From the NCBI RefSeq assembly GCF_006345805.1, contig NW_021823950.1, positions 1 to 20,711 of the forward strand: a stretch of DNA of 20,711 nucleotides. Direction: 5' to 3'. The notes below the pieces were generated by a model that was given only the letters and a program-made list of their open reading frames with translations, did not search any database and was not told the DNA's origin. How positions within the stretch are numbered: position 1 is the first letter of the stretch; each line of letters begins with the position of its first letter. Positions 3,420 through 19,942 of the stretch are shown here, one piece after another. Position numbers and translations under genes: made by a program. Source of the stretch: Octopus sinensis. Lineage: Eukaryota.

Positions 3420-3775
3420 TTGTGACGGCGGCGGCCGGGGTGGTTGTGGTCGTGGCCGTCGTCGTCGTCGTGGTATTTGTGATGATGACTGTATCAAGGG
3501 AAGTCGTAACGTTGGAGGTGATAGTGGTGGTAATGGGAGGTAATCGTTGTGTTTCTGAAAATGGTTCCATTTCATTGAGGTGGAGACGGTGATAGTGGTT
3601 GTAGTAATGGAGGCGATTTTGTGGTGGTGGTGGTGGTGGTGGTGGTTATTGTGACAGTGGTGATGTCTTTGACGGAGATAACATTTGTGATTGTAACTGT
3701 GGTAGTGATTGTGTCAACGGCGGCATTAATAGCGATGACGGACGTGGTAGCTTTCGTAGGTTAAGGTGACGGTGT
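3420..3775 (+). repeat. Degenerate GGT/GTC/GTG low-complexity tract
   Basis: (GTC)n ~3458-3471 and (GGT)n ~3623-3646. A ~35-bp imperfect duplication lies at ~3517 and ~3587. Confidence 0.7.
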
Positions 3776-3859
3776 TAGCTTACTAAATGAGGCGAATCGT
3801 TTGCATAATTATTAAAGCATTGGCTAGACCGATTTGCTTGCACGCTGCAGCACTACTAT

Positions 3860-4090
3860 AACACATTTGAAAATTTAAGTAAATATAAGGACCTTCAAAA
3901 CCAAAAGTCTCAAAATTGTGACATCTAAGAACAACGATTGTAATTTCGATCATCGGAGCAATGGAGGCAATACAACATGTCGCTCTTGAACACTATGGCC
4001 AAATATCAGGAATCTCGAATGTAACAGAACTACAAAAAATTGTTTTTATGAGTACAGCCGACATCCTGAAAAATACAAGATATTCAACAG
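3860..4090 (+). mobile_element. Old, degraded 3' fragment of an RLE (R4/Dong-like) retrotransposon, copy 2
   Basis: 3860-3895 gives NTFENLSKYKDL. After a frameshift, 3907 onward gives VSKL*HLRTTIVISIIGAMEAIQHVALEHYGQISGISNVTELQKIVFMSTADILK. This matches the K..KYxDL / W..K..VxPxxIGAxG / LQKxxLxGTAxIL end of RLE ORFs. Not in the ORF track. Confidence 0.7.
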
Positions 4091-4292
4091 AAAAATACTT
4101 GAATTTCTTTAAAGTTTTTCGAGCATTTCAGAACTGAAATATTATAAATTTCACAGAATCTGACCGCCTTCGCATACATCGTATCGTTGCTAGTCATAAA
4201 TAGCAGCCATTTGAAAATGGCCGATTTGCTGTTACTTGGTGTTTCGAGGTGACACTTCGAACAGCTCATATGAAACAAGGCAGCACTACCGA

Positions 4293-4394
4293 AAATAATA
4301 ATAATAATAATACTAATGATGATGATGATGATATAATAATAATAATAAATAATAATAATAATAATAAATAATATAATAATATAATAATAATATA

Positions 4395-4469
<75 letters not shown>

Positions 4470-4492
4470 TAATAATAATAATAATAATAATG

Positions 4493-4524
<32 letters not shown>

Positions 4525-4525
4525 C

Positions 4526-4559
<34 letters not shown>

Positions 4560-4567
4560 TGATGATG

Positions 4568-4609
<42 letters not shown>

Positions 4610-4629
4610 TAATAATAATAATAATAATA
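4293..4629 (+). repeat. (AAT)n/(GAT)n microsatellite
   Basis: Directly visible. Confidence 0.95.
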
Positions 4630-4827
4630 TACATAACAAAAACACCAGGACTTACAAACACATATAACATACAGAAAATTGCACTACTAGGCACTGCACA
4701 CATCCTACCTAGAACACTTTCCATACAATAACCATCAGAGCATCACAACAAATCACAGTACATACCTAAAGCACACAGAGCTGCGCTCGGTAGTGAAGTG
4801 AAAGCACGCTATAAAAGAAAAAAAAAA
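4630..4827 (+). mobile_element. 5'-truncated 3' end of an RLE (R4/Dong-like) retrotransposon, copy 3
   Basis: 4630-4731 translates to YITKTPGLTNTYNIQKIALLGTAHILPRTLSIQ*. The 3' UTR ends in an A-run that merges into (AAT)n, and (AAT)n also lies upstream. Confidence 0.85.
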
Positions 4828-4867
4828 TAATAATAATAATAATAACGATGATAATAATAATAATAAT

Positions 4868-5756
4868 TGTCAGGACTGTATCGAAAGAGAGGAAGACGGC
4901 TTACGGTCGTGTATAAAAAATGCCGTGGAACCACTGTTTAAATGCACGAAGAAGCCCGGTGTCATCAAAATTGAAAATTGAGTAAAATTTTGAAAGAAAT
5001 GAACAAAAAAATGCATGGAATGAAGCGAAATGTACGGTCAGTTTGCAAGATATGTGAACACCAAGACAGATACAGAGGACCTGTGGCTAAGGATGAAGAG
5101 GAATGACCTGAAGATAGAGACAGAAGCACTCATATGCGCAGCTGAAGAACAAGCGTTAAGGACTAACTATGTGAAGTGCAGAACTGATAACACTACCGAT
5201 AGCGACAAACGCAGAATGTGTGGTGAAAGGAATGAAACAGTATGGCTCATCGTTAGCGAATGCCCGAAATTGGCACAACGCGAATACAAGCAACGTCATG
5301 ACAATGTGGCAAGAATTATCCATTGGGAGCTCTGTGGAAATCACGGCCTACAAAGAGCAAAAATGTGGTATAAGAAAACCCCAGAAGAACTGCAAAATTC
5401 TGTGGGATGTAATGATCCAGTGCGATCACTGGACGAGACATCCGAATCCGGATATTGTTTTGGTGAATTAAAAGAAAGAACATGTATGATAATCGACATA
5501 GCATTCCCCAGTGTCAACAAGATCAATGTGAAAGAGAAGAAAAATAGACAACTACGACAATACGAAGGGTGTGGTCAATGAAGAGAGTAGAGGTGATACC
5601 AGTAGTAATTAGGGCACTTGGAAGTATCAGCACTCAACTACTAGCATGGCTGAAAAAGATTGGTGCAAATGTAAAGATAGAACACCTACAAAAAACGCAG
5701 AGTTCTTGAAGCATGACCAGTAAACAAGTGTCACCTCAGTCTGCTGGCTGTGGGCA
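4868..5756 (+). mobile_element. 5'-truncated RLE (R4/Dong-like) retrotransposon, copy 4: pseudogenised C-terminal zinc knuckle and PD-(D/E)xK endonuclease region
   Basis: ORF 5030-5581 contains MYGQF, W..DLKIETEALICAAEEQALRTN, a decayed CCHC knuckle (KRRMCGERNETVWLIVSEC) and YKQRHDNVARIIHWELC. Shifted frames give KILWDVMIQCDH..NPDIVLVN, CMIIDIA, WSMKRVEVIPVVIRALGSI..EHLQKT and RRVLEA* (stop 5714-5716). Several frameshifts and deletions. (AAT)n on both sides. Confidence 0.92.
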
Positions 5757-5757
5757 A

Positions 5758-5800
<43 letters not shown>

Positions 5801-5820
5801 TAATAATAATAATAATAATA

Positions 5821-5858
<38 letters not shown>

Positions 5859-5876
5859 TAATAATAATAATAATAA
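5757..5876 (+). repeat. (AAT)n microsatellite
   Basis: Directly visible. Confidence 0.95.
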
Positions 5877-5947
5877 GACTGAGTTTCTTTGCCCTAGGTG
5901 TCGAGAAGTCACTCGGTAAAAAAGGAAAACAAAACTGAAAGAAGAGA
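5877..5947 (+). mobile_element. Possible 3'-UTR-only remnant of another AAT-associated retrotransposon (copy 5)
   Basis: A ~70-bp complex island between AAT runs ending in A-rich sequence and then aataataat, like the neighbouring element ends. It has no coding sequence, so the call is positional only. Confidence 0.35.
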
Positions 5948-5991
5948 ATAATAATAGTAATGATGATGATGATGATGATGATGATGATGTT

Positions 5992-6082
5992 GATGGCTTG
6001 AAATTTTGTCGTACAAGGCCAGCAATTTCCGGGGAGTGTACAAGTCGATTACATCGCTTCCAGTGCTCAATTGGTATTTCTC
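5992..6082 (-). mobile_element. SINE 3' fragment (family C)
   Basis: aaattttgtcgtacaaggccagcaatttccgggg...gtcgattacatcgcttccagtgctcaattggta resembles the reverse complement of ~19855-19925 and the + strand of 19281-19314. Confidence 0.7.
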
Positions 6083-6159
6083 TTACGTCACGGCGGATTG
6101 TATACGAAACATCAGTTTATATATTTCAGAGATGTTATGTAAGTCAGAACGTGATAGTG

Positions 6160-6258
6160 TGAGAGGAATAGAAAGAGAGAAAGAGACAGAGAGAGAGAGG
6201 GAGAGTGAGAGAGTGTGTGAATGTGTGTTTTTTGCTTTATGTATGTCTGTGTGTCTCT
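6160..6258 (+). repeat. (GA)n/(GT)n microsatellite
   Basis: Directly visible. Confidence 0.8.
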
Positions 6259-6332
6259 ATGATACGCCGACGTACATATGTATAGTAATTATTGATTAGG
6301 TAACAGTCTTCTGTTGTTTTCCTCTATACCTC

Positions 6333-6337
6333 ATATT

Positions 6338-6374
<37 letters not shown>

Positions 6375-6453
6375 GCAACAACAATAACAACAACAATAAC
6401 AATAATGATACTTAGTTTTATTTTTATTTTCATCATCATTATCATTATTATTA

Positions 6454-6493
<40 letters not shown>

Positions 6494-6519
6494 CACTATT
6501 ATTATTATCATTATTATTA

Positions 6520-6567
<48 letters not shown>

Positions 6568-6660
6568 TATTATTATTATTATTATTACTATTGTTGTTGT
6601 TATTATACTATTGTTATTATTATTATTATTATTATATTATTATTATTATTATTATCATTA

Positions 6661-6702
<42 letters not shown>

Positions 6703-6740
6703 CACTATTATTATTATCATTATTATTATCATTATTGTTA

Positions 6741-6771
<31 letters not shown>

Positions 6772-7230
6772 CATTATTGTTATCATTATTATTATTATTA
6801 TTACTATTGTTGTTGTTATTATTACTATTGTTATTATCAGTTTCATCTGATATCATCGTTGTTGGTGTTATTGTTGTGACTGCTGTTGCACTTGTCGCTA
6901 TTCTTGATGTTGTTTTTCTTGTCATTGTTGTTGCTGCTGCTGCTGCTACTGCTGCCGTTCCTGTTGTAGTTCTGTTATTATTATTCTCGTCATTGTTGTT
7001 GTTGCTATTATTGTTGTTGCTGTTGTTGTTATTCCTAATACAGTTTGATATTTGTTTATTTTCCGTGTATTTTTTCTTCTATATTGTTAATAACGTTGAT
7101 GTTACTTCAGTCGCCATCTTTGTTCAAAATATTATTATTGTTTTTGCTGTTCCTGTTATTAATATTGTTGTTATTTTAATTTTTTCGTTTTTGTATTTTA
7201 TTTTTGTTTGATTTTTGATTTTTGATTTTT
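6333..7230. repeat. AAT/AAC run followed by long (ATT/ATC/GTT/GCT)n microsatellite and low-complexity sequence
   Basis: AAT/AAC at 6340-6408, then the complementary motif ATT from ~6420. ORFs here are poly-I/L/Y/N. Confidence 0.92.
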
Positions 7231-12275: not shown

Positions 12276-12466
12276 ATACATCGCAGTCGGCATTACACCT
12301 ATGGCTTATTCGTGAATATGCCCGTGCATGATTTTCTTCCTTTCCATGGTGTGTGTGTGTGTCTGTCGTTACGTTTTACATATGCATCTTTGTAGATGCA
12401 CACAGGCAAGTGTGTGCATTTATTCATTTAGAGAATTCCAAATGCCAAATCATTGGAATTACAAGT

Positions 12467-13848
12467 TGTATGTATGTATGTATGCATGCATGCATGTATG
12501 TATGTATGTATGTATGTATGTATGCATGCATGCATGTATGTATGTATGTATGTATGTATGTTGTATGTATGCATGTATGTATGTATACATGCATGTATGT
12601 ATGTATGTATGTATGCATGTATGCATGTATGTATGTATGTATGTATGCATGTATGTATGTATGTATGTTTGTATGTATGAATGTATGTATGTATGTATGT
12701 TTGTATGTATGAATGTATGTATGTATGTATGCATGTATGTATGCATGCATGTATGTATGTATGTATGCATGTATGTATGTATGTATGTATGAATGTATGT
12801 ATGTATGTATGTTTGTATGTATGAATGTATGTATGTATGTATGTTTGTATGTATGAATGTATGTATGTATGTATGCATGTATGTATGCATGCATGTATGT
12901 ATGTATGTATGTACGTATGCATGTATGTATGTATGCATGTATGTATGTATGTATGTATGTATGTATGTGTGTATGTATGTACGTATGTATGTATGTATGT
13001 ATGTATGTATGTATGTATGTATGTATGCATGTATGTACGTATGTATGCATGTATGCATGTATGTATGTATGTATGTATGCATGCATGCATGTATGCATGT
13101 ATGTATGTATGTATGTATGCATGAATGCATGTATGTATGTATGCATGTATGTATGCATGCATGTATGTATGTATGTATGTATGTACGTATGCATGCATGT
13201 ATGTATGTATGTATGCATGTATGTATATATGTATGTATGTATGCATGTATGTATGTATGTATGCATGCATGCATGTATGCATGCATGTACGTATGTATGC
13301 ATGTATGCATGTATGTATGTATGTATGCATGCATGTATGCATGTATGTATGTATGCATGTATGCATGTATGTATGTATGTATGCATGTATGCATGTATGC
13401 AAGTATGTATGTATGTATGTATGTATGCATGTATGTATGTACGTATGCATGCATGCATGTATTATGCATGCATGTACGTATGTATGCATGCATGCATGTA
13501 TGTATGTATGTATGTATGTATGCATGTATTTAAGTATGTATGTATGTGTGTATGTATGTATGTATGTATGCATGCATGTATGTATATATATGTATGTATG
13601 TAAGCATGCATGCATGTATGTAAGTATATATGTATCTATGTATGTATGCATGTATGCATGTATGTATGCATGCATGCATGTATGCATGTATGTATGTATG
13701 TATGTATGCATGCATGCATGTATGCATGTATGTATGTATGTATGTATGTATGTATGTATGCATGTATGTATGTATGTATGTATGCATGTATGTATGTATG
13801 CATGTATGCATGTATGTATGTATGTATGCATGCATGCATGTATGCATG

Positions 13849-13880
<32 letters not shown>

Positions 13881-14330
13881 CATGTATGTATGTACGTATG
13901 CATGCATGCATGTATGTATGCATGCATGTACGTACGCATGCATGCATGTATGTATGTATGTATGCATGCATGTATGCATGCATGTACGTATGTATGCATG
14001 TATGCATGTATGTATGTATGTATGCATGTATGTATGTATGCATGTATGCATGTATGTATGTATGTATGCATGTATGTATGTATGCATGTATGCATGTATG
14101 TATGTATGCATGCATGCATGTATGTATGTATGTATGCATGTATGTATGTATATATGTATGCATGCATGTATTTAAGTATGTATGTATGTGTGTATGTATG
14201 CATGTATGTATGTATGTATGCATGCATGTATGTATATATATGTATGTATGTAAGCATGCATGCATGTATGTAAGTATATATGTATCTATGTATGTATGGA
14301 TGGATGGATGGATGGATGGATGGATGTATG
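12467..14330. repeat. ~1.86-kb (TATG)n tetranucleotide array rich in CATG variants, ending in (GATG)n
   Basis: Directly visible. It accounts for all the MYVC/HTYI ORFs in this interval. Confidence 0.97.
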
Positions 14331-14459
14331 GCCACTCTTAGTTCTACTAGTAACATGTAACTTATTGCATGGTCGGGCCGTAGGTGACTAAGGTGGCAAC
14401 TCTGCCAAATCTACTTGATTAGAAGGGTGGTTTTACTTGAACAACCTGCACTATGGAAA

Positions 14460-15169: not shown

Positions 15170-15520
15170 AGCCGAATACAAAGACTTAGGCGAAGTCGAA
15201 AAAGGCAAAACAAACAATGAAAAATTCCATGATGGAAAGAAGCTGTGTCAACGTGCGTGGATGTTTTGCAAGCAACTTGCACATGCAAGTGCTACCGGTC
15301 AAAAACTCCGCATACCGGAAGCCAGCAAGTGTATGGGATCATCAGGAGAGAGTGCATGCTGTTTCGGTGTAAATTGTCTGGACACTTTCCGCAAATGGCG
15401 GCCAGTGTCGTCACATGTGTGAAAAGCGTGTAAGTCGTGGGCAGGGCTGAAAGACAGCCGCCATGTTACTTTAAGACAACGATCAAGCGATGGCAATGCT
15501 CAGTATGGAACTGCAGCCAT
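15170..15520 (+). mobile_element. Second degraded RTE-like 3' end running into (TATG)n
   Basis: YKD near 15177, WKEAVSTCVDVLQ from 15233, and CRHMC (15406-15420) followed after a frameshift by KACKSWAGLK, a C2H2-like terminal motif. The TATG array follows after a short tail. Confidence 0.5.
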
Positions 15521-16158
15521 TATGTATGTGTGTATGTATGTATGTATGTATGTATGTATGTATGTATGTATGTATGTGTGTATGTATGTATGTATGTGTG
15601 TATGTATGTATGTATGTGTGTGTGTATGTATGTATGTATGTATGTATGTATGTATGTATGTGTATGTATGTATGTATGTATGTGTGTATGTATGTATGTA
15701 TGTATGTGTGTGTGTATGTATGTATGTATGTATGTATGTATGTATGTGTGTATGTATGTATGTGTGTATGTATGTATGTATGTATGTATGTATGTGTGTA
15801 TGTATGTATGTATGTATGTGTGTATGTATGTATGTGTGTATGTATGTATGTGTGTATGTATGTATGTATGCACGTACGTACGTACGTATGTATGTATGAA
15901 TGTATGTATGTATGTATGTATGTATGTATGTATGTATGTATGTACGTATGCATGTATGTATGTATGTATGTATGTATGTATGTATGTACGTATGTATGTA
16001 TGCATGTATGTATGTATGTATGTACGTATGTATGTACGTATGTATGTATGCATGTATGTATGTATGTATGTATGTATGTATGTATGTATGTATGCACGTA
16101 CGTACGTACGTACGTATGTATGTATGTATGAATGTATGTATGTATGTATATATGTATG

Positions 16159-16192
<34 letters not shown>

Positions 16193-16372
16193 TGCATGTG
16201 TTTATGTATGTATGTAGTTAAGTATGCATATATGTATGTGCATATGTATGTAGATATGTATGTGTGTATATATATGAATGTATGCATCTATGTGTATATG
16301 TATGGCTGTATGTATGTATGAGTGTATGTATGTGTATGTATGTGTATATGTATGTACGTATGTATGTATGCA
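15521..16372. repeat. ~850-bp (TATG)n array with TGTG and TACG variants
   Basis: Directly visible. Confidence 0.97.
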
Positions 16373-16895: not shown

Positions 16896-17465
16896 ATGAA
16901 CTGGAAGAACAGAATGGTAGGGGAAAGACGTGGATTGGTTGAACCAGTACGAGTGATAATAGGCGATCGAGATAGCAACAATTTTCAAGAACTGGTAAAC
17001 TGGCAGTCATGCTGGCAGCATTCTGGTAGAACTGGTAAAATGCCTGTCAAGATGGTGGTAGATCAACTGTTGTGGTAGAATAAAGTAACATCCAAAACGG
17101 TGACGGATGTATAGAACTGGTAGAATGACAAGCAACATGGTGGTATATTTGTTGAATTATTAGAGTAACAGTCAAGATGGCGGCAGATTTGTAGGTCGTA
17201 CAGTAGATTGATTGCTAAAATGGTGGAACTTGTAGAGTGGCAGTCAAGATGGTGGCAGATATTTAGAACTGGTAGAGTGAGTACCAACATGACAGAAAGT
17301 TGACGTTACTGGTAGAACAGTAGTCGATATGGCAGTAGATTAATAGAACTTGTAATGTTAAGTGTCAAACAAATTTCTGATGAATTAACAGAACTAGTAG
17401 AATAATATAGAGCCGAGAGCAGAATGCTGGTAGACTGGAAGGACTTGTAGAACGGTGTAGAAGAT
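16895..17465 (+). repeat. Degenerate ~40-bp minisatellite (consensus approx. GAACTGGTAGAGTGGCAGTCAAGATGGTGGCAGATTTGTA)
   Basis: GAACT(G/T)GTA-like unit starts at 16989, 17029, 17114, 17154, 17226, 17266, 17306, 17346 and 17391. gtcaagatgg recurs three times. Confidence 0.8.
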
Positions 17466-17840: not shown

Positions 17841-18430
17841 CCCTATCATTGGACATTGTGTGACGGTAAACTGGTTATGAGGCCCCAAACTAATAGGGCT
17901 ATTAACACTACACCGAACGGGTTGATACGAAAGGAGTAAAATCTCTGTCACATCAATATCACAAGCTGATCCTCAGAAAATAAATAGAATAAATAACGCC
18001 AAGACAAAAAAAATTATTCTGCAGAAGGATTTCTTTCACAATTCCAGATATTAAAAATTCTGGCAGTCTTAGAAACCGATGCCATAATTCTTTCAAACAT
18101 TAGAATAACAGAGATGAGTCAAGTGGACGCCTGACTATTATACGTTTTCCTGTATTTTCTTTTAGTTATGCATCTTTACAGTTGAATTTTTAACAAATGT
18201 TTGGTTTGCCTTTCATTCAAGAAAGTACTTAATATTCATTACGTTATTTAAAGTACAACTCTAAAATGTATAGCATTTTTATTTAATAGTTTACTAGTAC
18301 GCCTTTCAGGGGCCTTCGAGACGCAGAAAGTAATATTTAAAGAATTTGGGAATACGAAACCTTCGAACTGTAACTTGTAAGCTTTAAAATGCAAGAAAAA
18401 CGGCGATTCCACCCAAGCAATTTAAGAATC

Positions 18431-18762
18431 CAATTGCAGCGTGGAGGTGTTTGTAAGTCATTTAAGAAACACACAAAAGCCGTTCGATTCACTTCAACAT
18501 TTTAGTTTAATTTGTCAAAATATTTTCGTCGCTTTAAAACCGCGACCCGTTCACTGACAAAAATCCGTGCTGCATCTCGGATCTCGGATCGCGGTCTTAA
18601 AGCGACGAAAATATTTTGACAAATTAAACTTAAATGTTGAAGTGAATCGAACGGCTTTTGTGTGTTTCTTAAATGGCTTACAAACACCTTCCACGCTGCA
18701 ATTGTTTTCGTTTCAGCACACGATCTCAGATCAAATCACTTGCTATGCGAGGACATCTCTGT
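18431..18762. mobile_element. Inverted-repeat insertion with a 12-bp flanking direct repeat; probable Penelope-like element terminal (pLTR) remnant
   Basis: Arms 18431-18545 and 18589-18704 are reverse complements with about 3 mismatches and 1 indel. aatttaagaatc occurs at 18419-18430 and 18763-18774. The element contains a hammerhead-like motif. No RT or GIY-YIG sequence is present, so the family call is inference. Confidence 0.7.
18511..18561 (-). ncRNA. Minimal type I hammerhead-ribozyme-like motif with a variant core
   Basis: The minus strand reads UUUGUCA-GUGAACG-G-GUCGC-GGUUUUAAA-GCGAC-GAAA-AUAU-UU-UGACAAA. This gives a 7-bp stem I, a core at the CUGANGA position, a 5-bp stem II, GAAA, a palindromic mini stem III and UH. 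Confidence 0.55.
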
Positions 18763-19212
18763 AATTTAAGAATCAGAGCGACAAAATAAATAACAATCTG
18801 AGATAAAAAGGGTTTTTTTTTTTTTCAGAAACACTATCACGCGCAAACAACAACCGTAATTGAAAAACAACAAAACAAAAATGAAAGAAAAAGCATCAGA
18901 AAAACATATTTGACTTTAAGCAAGAAAAGGGCAAATGCATTGGGTTAATAACGAACAAACATAAACTAGAAAAACAGGATGACAGAAATAGAACAGGTAC
19001 TGAACCGAATGCCAAACTGTATTTCCTAAGCGGAATTTACAGCCAGTTGGTGAATTTGGTATAAGCACCGGGGAGAGTAGAAATTATAGATTTCGAAAAG
19101 TGTGGAATCGGTAAATCGAAGATGGAACTGAATATGGATGTTTTTATAAAGAAAGTGATGACCTAGAAACGGCGCCTAGCTGTCATCACTACTACTACTG
19201 CTGTGGGTGATA

Positions 19213-19447
19213 TATTTATTTCTTTATTGCCCACAGGGGGCGAAACATAGAGGAGCAAACAAGGATAGACAAGGGGATTGAGTCGATTATATCGACCCCA
19301 GTGCGTAACTGGTATTCATTATATCGATCCCGAAAGGATGAAAAGCAAAGTCGACCTCGGCGGAATTTGAACTCAAGAACGTAACGGCAGACGAAATTCT
19401 GCTAAGCATTTCGCCCGGTGTGCTAACGTTTCTGCCTGCTCGCCAAC
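19213..19447 (-). mobile_element. tRNA-derived SINE (family C), reverse orientation
   Basis: The reverse complement aligns along its whole length with 19541-19770. Confidence 0.9.
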
Positions 19448-19537
19448 TTGCTGTGTGTGATATATTAACAGACATATTTATATAGTAAACTAAACTTACA
19501 CTCTCAAGAAATATATTCAATATTCGAAGATCCTTAA

Positions 19538-19942
19538 AGCGGCGAGCTGGCAGAAACGTTAGCACGCCGGGCGAAATGCGTAGCCGTATTTCGTCTGCCG
19601 CTACGTTCTGAGTTCAAATTCCACCGAGGTCGACTTTGCTTTTCATCCTTTCGGGGTCGATTAAATAATTACCAGTTACGCACTGGGGTCGATATAATCG
19701 ATTTAACCCGTTTGTCTGTCCTTGTTTGTCCCCTCTGTGTTTAGCCCCTTGTGGATAGTGAAGAAATAGGCATTTCGTCTGTCTTGACGTTCTTGAGTTC
19801 AAATTCCGCCGAGGTCGACTTTGCCCCTTTCATCCGTTCGGGGTCGATAAATTAAGTACCAGTTGCGTACTGGGGTCGATCTAATCAACTGATCCTCTCC
19901 CCCAAAATTTAAGGCTTTGTGCCTAGTGTAGAAAAGAATATT
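19538..19942 (+). mobile_element. tRNA-derived SINE (family C) with dimeric structure
   Basis: A-box-like agctggcagaa and B-box gagttcaaattcc (19610-19622). A second, headless unit restarts at atttcgtctg (19772; compare 19588), with its own B-box and a different tail. Confidence 0.9.

What the first reader, a model, noticed from the sequence alone, without database searches (positions are those of the whole stretch)
18511..18561. Hammerhead-ribozyme-like fold with a swapped G3-C8 core pair inside the inverted-repeat element
Seen: the minus strand folds in minimal type I hammerhead order. Stem I is UUUGUCA/UGACAAA, the 7-nt core is GUGAACG followed by one extra G, stem II is GUCGC/GCGAC, and GAAA leads into a palindromic AAAAUAUUUU stem III region ending in UU. 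Established: Penelope-like elements carry minimal hammerheads whose palindromic stem III permits dimeric cleavage, and core positions 3 and 8 form a Watson-Crick pair (normally C3-G8). Here both positions are changed and still pair (G3-C8), so a CUGANGA motif search would miss it. Position 9 is G rather than the conserved A, so this copy may be inactive. Inference: the repeat family encodes a non-canonical self-cleaving RNA.
Basis: partly seen in the sequence, partly recalled or inferred. Interest (0 to 1): 0.75.

Follow-up and report, generated by a model that had tools for sequence, protein, structure and literature searches.

The report
Swapped-core hammerhead in Penelope retrotransposon
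This is one of over 4,000 short end-pieces of a Penelope-type jumping gene whose leader carries a hammerhead-shaped RNA with its central base pair naturally flipped (G-C in place of C-G); the family form is predicted to cut itself slowly, and this particular copy is likely dead.

Summary
Observation confirmed. The motif is the minimal type I hammerhead in the pseudo-LTR of an endonuclease-positive Penelope-like retroelement; a pLTR-ORF-pLTR copy with RT and GIY-YIG motifs carries it at both ends. G3-C8 is the family state: 4,063 of 4,600 genome matches read G3, C8, A9. The window's G9 is sporadic (24 matches). A sister family, older relatives in the genome and most metagenome relatives have C3-G8 at the same place, two have U3-A8, with compensatory stem changes; the RT tree makes G3-C8 derived. 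That points to selection on the 3-8 pair. Cleavage is untested. Against strong activity: all-A-U stem III, no excess of 5' ends at the predicted cut, frequent G3-G8 copies. This copy is a 344-bp head-to-head stub with a 12-bp target duplication; its RNA would fold into a long hairpin. I found no natural G3-C8 in print (key papers unreadable). This scan has reported the same family before on other DNA (13 notes). New variant of a known kind.

The parts
18419..18430 (.). left copy of 12-bp target-site duplication
   Evidence: identical 12-mer at 18419 and 18763
18431..18577 (-). short arm: pLTR stub from the inferred transcription start (18577) to the short 3' end (pLTR end, 18431)
   Evidence: 92% identical to both pLTR ends of the pLTR-ORF-pLTR copy L127; same short end in many copies
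18511..18561 (-). minimal type I hammerhead motif, G3-C8 core, G9 in this copy (family A9)
18548..18554 (-). core positions 3-9 (G3 at 18554, C8 at 18549, G9 at 18548)
   Evidence: aligned to C3-G8 and U3-A8 relatives
18528..18546 (-). stem II (5 bp) and 9-nt loop II; loop II differs among subfamilies
18519..18524 (-). 6-nt palindromic stem III (A15.1 to U16.1), able to pair only with a second copy
   Evidence: duplex -0.2 kcal/mol; over-extended 10-bp duplex -3.8
18517..18518 (-). predicted cleavage site after U17 (untested)
   Evidence: hammerhead numbering; no genomic footprint
18578..18578 (-). non-genomic G at the 5' end of the short arm, likely a reverse-transcribed cap (inference)
   Evidence: 33 of 43 copies with this 5' boundary have G where the element's upstream DNA has C
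18579..18588 (.). junction filler made of short duplicated pieces
18589..18762 (+). long arm: pLTR stub 5'-truncated inside stem II (lacks the core 3-9 box), running through the pLTR end (about 18704) and the roughly 60-nt tail
   Evidence: 96% identical to L127 upstream pLTR plus ORF start; same long end in many copies
18673..18762 (+). first 30 codons of the element's ORF (MAYKHLPRC...); the tail lies inside it
   Evidence: translation matches the L127 ORF start
18763..18774 (.). right copy of target-site duplication

Best explanation
The motif is the pLTR hammerhead of an abundant Penelope-like retroelement whose family has a flipped G3-C8 core pair; the family form (A9) is predicted to be a slow, partner- or protein-assisted self-cleaving RNA, and this copy is likely inactive. 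Shown: family membership, position 56 nt upstream of the ORF start, family-wide G3-C8-A9, and C3-G8 or U3-A8 at the same place in relatives. Inferred: a capped transcript starts about 16 nt upstream of stem I; RT primes at one of two sites in the ORF start and copies mostly uncut RNA to the cap, giving 150-260-nt stubs that often insert head to head; two RNAs would complete stem III through the 6-nt palindrome; selection kept the 3-8 pair while its letters were exchanged. This copy has G9 and an antisense arm that would sequester the motif.
For: pLTR-ORF-pLTR copy L127 with hammerheads 4,361 nt apart. RT motif YSRYVDD, DKSG, CxxxCxxC linker and GIY-YIG-type C-terminus; 277 homologues, some with RVT_1 or GIY-YIG hits. 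4,063 of 4,600 matches are G3/C8/A9, control 0. Sister family (56% aa identity) has C3-G8 at the same place; older genomic relatives have C3-G8-A9 with near-identical stems; metagenome relatives have C3-G8 or U3-A8. In an 18-row alignment the 3-8 pair is Watson-Crick in 18 of 18 rows (12 C-G, 5 G-C, 1 U-A), 8 of 11 pairs show double changes, 0 of 500 shuffles reach this, slid controls pair 20-49% against 93%. RT tree joins this family to the C3-G8 sister (100/99) among C3-G8 relatives. Engineered C3G/G8C partly restores cleavage in a PLE hammerhead, and uncut RNA is the main insertion substrate (PMC11167929). Whole-insertion fold is a -217 kcal/mol hairpin.
Against: No cleavage was measured. 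Stem III is all A-U and weak (-0.2 kcal/mol); a 10-bp over-extended duplex that would pair A13/A14 is more stable (-3.8), and neither cofold MFE shows the active double hammerhead. No excess of 5' junctions at the predicted cut once microhomology is spread (5.2 of 76 against a mean of 4.0 over 19 offsets; the raw count there, 10, was the highest). Unpaired G3-G8 is the commonest change at position 8 (50 of the first 100 listed of 256, counted by eye). No covariation among copies within the family. The sister family and L178 have C at position 9, so this clade tolerates departures from the core. 8 of the 18 alignment rows were found with a pattern that demanded C3-G8 and the 5' stem strands. 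Pfam does not recognise this family's own protein.
Confidence: 0.7

Rival explanations
1. Catalytically dead relic kept for another reason: the fold descends from a hammerhead but now serves as a protein-binding, promoter-proximal or translation-start element, and the 3-8 swap only keeps its shape.
For: No footprint of cleavage among genomic 5' ends; most short copies span the cut site up to the inferred cap; weak stem III; G3-G8 copies are common; C9 in two relatives; hammerhead mutants do not affect insertion in vitro (PMC11167929).
Against: The 3-8 pair is a tertiary contact of the cleaving conformation (PMC3088659 section 8), so keeping it Watson-Crick in three forms is what selection on catalysis predicts; G5, A6, G12, A13, A14, A15.1, U16.1 are kept in the family.
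Confidence: 0.2
2. Neutral double change: a founder lineage drifted C3 to G and G8 to C while the ribozyme was dispensable, and the restored pair is luck amplified by a burst of copying.
For: One fixation event only; abundant G3-G8 copies could be traces of an unpaired intermediate; within-family variation looks like neutral decay.
Against: The only two constrained core positions that differ from the closest C3-G8-A9 relatives are the two paired ones and they stay complementary; U3-A8 appears on two other branches; G3-C8 persists across subfamilies with different loop II and in runs of four organism labels.
Confidence: 0.08
3. Chance look-alike inside a MITE-like inverted repeat.
For: The window copy looks like a hairpin element with 105-bp arms.
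Against: 0 descriptor hits in 2.53 Mb of random sequence; the arms are stubs of a retroelement end with an RT/endonuclease ORF; inversion points vary from copy to copy.
Confidence: 0.01

Closest known systems
Minimal type I hammerheads in pLTRs of metazoan Penelope-like elements (Cervera and de la Pena 2014, PMC4209133; read parts 1-2 of 4 and passages of one supplement)
   Same: Type I order, extra nucleotide between 9 and 10.1, G10.1-C11.1, short palindromic helix III, location in the pLTR, single and opposite-strand pairs across the genome.
   Different: G3-C8 in place of C3-G8 (their consensus is CUGANGAH; their one core covariant is U3-A8 in Schistosoma); extra base is G; stem I is 7 bp.
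PAc (Poseidon, Anolis) hammerhead (Frangieh et al. 2024, PMC11167929; read parts 1-2 of 4)
   Same: Hammerhead next to the ORF start, two 3' ends with a tail inside the ORF start, insertion from uncut RNA.
   Different: There C3G/G8C was an engineered partial rescue; here it is the natural family state. Tail about 60 nt against 30-40; ORF starts 56 nt after the cut site, not at stem II.
Natural core-variant hammerheads (Perreault et al. 2011, PMC3088659; passages and section 8)
   Same: Natural covariation of the 3-8 pair.
   Different: They report U3-A8 only in the text I read; figures are not held.
Neptune-type EN+ PLEs (Craig et al. 2021, PMC8557442; passages, section 11, part 2 of the supplement)
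   Same: C-terminal GIY-YIG with CCHH-like residues, CX2-5CxxC linker, DKG-like motif, (TA)n preference, inverted 5'-truncated copy, tail.
   Different: Clade placement not tested against reference Neptune proteins; Hydra's diagnostic DKT and CxCX5C are absent.

Membership tests
Hammerhead ribozyme, minimal type I | Stems I and II around the core in type I order | tested here: met
Hammerhead ribozyme, minimal type I | Invariant U4 G5 A6, G12 A13 A14, A15.1-U16.1, H17 | tested here: met
   present in the window copy; each in at least 114 of 121 family copies
Hammerhead ribozyme, minimal type I | Watson-Crick 3-8 pair | tested here: met
   G3-C8 in 4,063 of 4,600 matches (with A9); pair kept in 18 of 18 aligned rows
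Hammerhead ribozyme, minimal type I | Consensus letters C3 and G8 (CUGANGA) | tested here: not met
   swapped; no Rfam hammerhead hit
Hammerhead ribozyme, minimal type I | A9 | tested here: inconclusive
   met in the family (117 of 121); not met in this copy (G9; 24 such matches)
Hammerhead ribozyme, minimal type I | Stem III, or a palindrome that completes it in a dimer | tested here: inconclusive
   perfect 6-nt palindrome but -0.2 kcal/mol, with a competing 10-bp form
Hammerhead ribozyme, minimal type I | Site-specific self-cleavage | not testable with these tools
   no raw RNA reads were available; genomic junction profile flat
EN+ Penelope-like element | Single ORF with RT and C-terminal GIY-YIG | tested here: met
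   motifs in L096 and L127; homologue P0117 passes the GIY-YIG cut-off, RVT_1 hits weak, own protein not recognised by Pfam
EN+ Penelope-like element | pLTR direct repeats with hammerhead, inverted 5'-truncated copy, tail | tested here: met
   L127 direct pLTRs; L131 and L132 inverted upstream copies; two 3' ends
EN+ Penelope-like element | AT-rich or (TA)n targets, target duplication | tested here: met
   12-bp duplication in the window; (TA)n flanks common
Neptune clade | CX2-5CxxC linker plus CCHH in the endonuclease | tested here: met
   read from the translation against the text of PMC8557442
Neptune clade | RT phylogeny with reference Neptune elements | not tested
   the tree holds no reference PLE
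Non-LTR retrozyme (tandem non-coding hammerhead repeat) | Head-to-tail tandem units without an ORF | tested here: not met
   copies are stubs of a coding element; the one 3-kb array examined was a host duplication

The most novel reading that the evidence does not exclude
A natural, active G3-C8 hammerhead that crossed the C3-G8 to G3-C8 valley through an unpaired G3-G8 intermediate which still transposed: the ribozyme would be dispensable for any single insertion yet selected over the life of the lineage, for example as a protein-assisted, two-RNA switch that limits or times cleavage in a dimeric RT particle. Swapped cores would then hide hammerheads in elements now listed as lacking them.
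Probability: 0.25. Interest if true: 0.6.

Novelty: new variant of a known kind. Interest (0 to 1): 0.4.

Why it matters
The 3-8 pair forms only in the cleaving fold, so a natural G3-C8 fixed in thousands of copies, beside C3-G8 and U3-A8 relatives, is evolutionary evidence that PLE hammerheads are selected for that fold although in vitro insertion does not need them. It supplies a natural series (C-G, U-A, G-C, and unpaired G-G) for testing what the PLE ribozyme does. It also shows that CUGANGA descriptors and Rfam miss whole families, so claims that some PLE clades lack hammerheads deserve a re-screen with a pair-aware descriptor. The scope is modest: hammerheads in PLEs, natural 3-8 covariation and engineered G3-C8 rescue are all known, and this copy is likely junk.

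Tried and rejected
Rfam: no hammerhead hit in 18300-18900; the whole-window listing was filled with microsatellite hits and only 150 of 300 rows were shown. A 2.5-3.2-kb array of matches on C2 was taken for a tandem element but is a host duplication without the ORF. My first descriptor run missed the sister family's hammerhead because it demanded A9; it was found by eye. Cleavage footprint: 51 matches starting at the cut against 31 at one control position looked suggestive, but the full profile from the first 100 of 502 matches (96 distinct, 76 junctions) is flat after microhomology weighting: rejected as evidence of cleavage. Intron reading of the sequence upstream of the short copies (branch-point-like and AG-ending): not excluded, but letters before the extra G vary, which fits a copied cap better. 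G3-G8 as a clean subfamily: not shown, since it occurs in several loop classes and opposite a C8 partner in 4 two-copy insertions. Expression: no RNA holder listed; contigs of four runs guessed to be RNA cover the pLTR and parts of the ORF but cannot show ends or strand. Papers not held: Lunse 2017, Przybilski and Hammann 2007, Martick and Scott 2006; one Cervera 2014 supplement was not searched; any of these may already hold a natural G3-C8. PMC7461866, PMC13725137, PMC6155905, PMC11014351 (passages) and PMC3884650 (passages; engineered G3-C8 only) showed none. A search for A9G data found nothing relevant, so the effect of G9 rests on recalled knowledge that A9 is a conserved core residue.

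Full report
Observation. It folds with stems I and II (-13.8 kcal/mol, z -2.38). A strict pair-aware descriptor finds it as the only hit in the window and finds nothing in 2.53 million strand-bases of composition-matched random sequence. Rfam has no hammerhead match in 18300-18900.

Family. A DNA search of the own genome gave 1,538 candidates (40 scored) with top copies 92-97% identical. A pattern leaving positions 3, 7, 8, 9 and the extra base free matches 4,600 times, control 0; 4,063 of these read G3, C8, A9. The window's exact G9 form occurs 24 times; the 14 copies inspected fall in different loop classes, so G9 is sporadic. In 121 aligned copies, drawn from the loci and not a random sample, G3 is in 118, C8 in 108 and A9 in 117; no core position has a minor letter at 10%, one of 24 stem positions does (A to G, giving a U-G pair, 13 copies), and 5 of 9 loop II positions do. 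Copies within the family do not covary. Contigs of runs under four organism labels hold the element with no other letter at 5% or more at core positions 3-9. The closest named protein, P0001, is labelled Octopus vulgaris by its source and matches a sister family in this genome at up to 99%.

What the repeat is. Copies that run further 5' lead through a 1-kb CATA-rich region into an ORF. L096 has a 722-residue open frame with DKSG, YSRYVDD, a CxxxCxxC linker and a GIY-YIG-type end. L127 is pLTR-ORF-pLTR: hammerheads 4,361 nt apart, ORF from 3657 to 6871 in two frames with one frameshift, and the 3' pLTR ending before (TA)n. The ORF starts 56 nt after the predicted cut. The family has two 3' ends about 60 nt apart; the stretch between them lies in the ORF start, and the window's long arm translates to the same N-terminus. 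This matches the inverted-copy and tail structure described for PLEs (PMC8557442 passages) and the two RT start sites inside the ORF start of PAc (PMC11167929). Pfam does not recognise this protein; three homologues hit RVT_1 weakly and one passes the GIY-YIG cut-off. The linker and CCHH-like residues fit Neptune-type architecture and not Hydra; no reference tree was built. The window insertion is a short arm (18431-18577, minus) and a long arm (18589-18762, plus) between 12-bp target duplications.

The swap is derived and compensatory. The sister family (56% aa identity) has a hammerhead at the same pLTR position with C3-G8, C at 9, and double changes in stems I and II. A pattern for C3-G8-A9 with this family's 5' stem strands matched 25 times, control 3. 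Of the 20 inspected, none is a copy of this family; about half are decayed older relatives with recognisable 3' stem strands and the same downstream pLTR sequence. Of 29 metagenome loci, 3 passed the descriptor (L180 and L184 C3-G8, L178 U3-A8 with C9); L179, L182, L183, L187, L191 and L197 were read by eye as further, partly mutated, C3-G8 or U3-A8 motifs, and the others showed none or lacked the flank. On an 18-row alignment the 3-8 pair is Watson-Crick in all rows, 8 of 11 pairs have double changes, 0 of 500 shuffles reach the scores and slid controls pair 20-49% against 93%. Caveats: rows are related, 5 are this family, 8 were picked by a pattern that fixed C3-G8, and damaged relatives were left out. 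A 16-row RT tree joins this family to the C3-G8 sister (100/99) inside a set of mostly C3-G8 relatives, with U3-A8 on two other branches; the root is the midpoint.

How it likely works. Of 143 copies examined, 43 have their 5' boundary just upstream of stem I with foreign sequence before it, and 33 of these carry a G where the element has C. I read this as a capped transcript start at an initiator-like site with the cap copied by RT (inference; the initiator consensus and cap copying are recalled). Such copies span the cut site, so they come from uncut RNA, as in PAc in vitro. 5' junctions are not enriched at the cut: 5.2 weighted against a mean of 4.0 over 19 offsets, 76 junctions, although the raw count there (10) is the highest, largely because stem I gives 7 nt of microhomology. 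Cleavage, if it occurs, would need a second RNA: the 6-nt palindrome is weak and competes with an over-extended duplex. Minimal PLE hammerheads cleave poorly and as dimers (PMC4209133; review PMC6765202), the PAc one needs its protein, and engineered C3G/G8C partly rescues it. I therefore expect slow, assisted cleavage by the A9 family form (0.7). This copy has G9 and sits in a -217 kcal/mol hairpin if read through, so it is likely dead.

Results against. Position 8 differs from C in 256 otherwise exact matches; of the first 100 listed, 50 are G, 36 T and 14 A, counted by eye. A transversion to unpaired G3-G8 outnumbering the transition is unexplained. It may be a hotspot or the trace of an intermediate lineage; in 4 two-copy insertions a G8 copy faces a C8 copy. 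C at position 9 in two relatives also shows slack in the core.

Literature and novelty. Natural U3-A8 is reported (PMC3088659 section 8; PMC4209133). Searches for natural G3-C8 found only engineered variants, and a search for octopus Penelope hammerheads found no such report. The hammerhead table in PMC8557442's supplement has only C3 cores. Lunse 2017, Przybilski and Hammann 2007 and Martick and Scott 2006 could not be read, one supplement of PMC4209133 was not searched, and figures are not held, so prior report is possible. This scan already holds 13 notes on the same kind of motif in at least 2 genomes (8 shown; none near this window). They agree with a reading I reached before seeing them and are not independent support. 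One gave a lead that the two arms can come from different subfamilies: 9 of 100 head-to-head pairs differ at two or more diagnostic marks, 5 of them with one shared pattern that may be a single event; the window pair scores 0.

Verdict. Real, family-wide and evolutionarily supported; a new variant of a known kind; activity untested; interest 0.4.

Noticed in passing
window 18578; family-wide: Non-genomic G at the 5' end of 33 of 43 copies with this boundary, likely a reverse-transcribed cap marking the transcription start.
   Followed up: partly
G000, 256 matches; e.g. L048, L128, L373, L382: Unpaired G3-G8 is the commonest change at position 8, above the C-to-T transition; hotspot or evolutionary intermediate, unexplained.
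   Followed up: partly
L163:6862-6922 and L178:2488-2548: Two related PLE hammerheads have C at position 9 (one C3-G8, one U3-A8); a CUGANGA search would miss these too.
   Followed up: partly
L003, L227, L016, L265, L038: Head-to-head insertions whose arms carry marks of different subfamilies, which suggests two RNA templates per insertion in a minority of cases (9 of 100, not all independent).
   Followed up: partly
L127:3520-3545 and 453 genome matches: Sequence just upstream of the inferred start also looks like a branch point, pyrimidine tract and AG acceptor; an intron as in Drosophila Penelope is not excluded.
   Followed up: partly
L159:4265 and 4629: Two copies, 364 nt apart, of another hammerhead-like motif with a U3-A8 core and palindromic stem III; possibly a retrozyme-like tandem.
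   Followed up: no
L134:1297-4659: The sister family's ORF carries a long Asn-rich low-complexity insertion upstream of the RT, still in frame.
   Followed up: no
window 19256-19895: Several copies of a SINE-like repeat in inverted and direct arrangement; resemblance to an octopus SINE is recalled, not tested.
   Followed up: no
window 16984-17340: Degenerate 40-bp tandem repeat, 7 copies.
   Followed up: no
window 5024-5581: 185-residue frame resembling the C-terminal zinc-knuckle region of a non-LTR retrotransposon (resemblance recalled).
   Followed up: no
window 12450-14340 and 15500-16300: Long (TATG)n-type microsatellite arrays that give many spurious miRNA-family hits.
   Followed up: no
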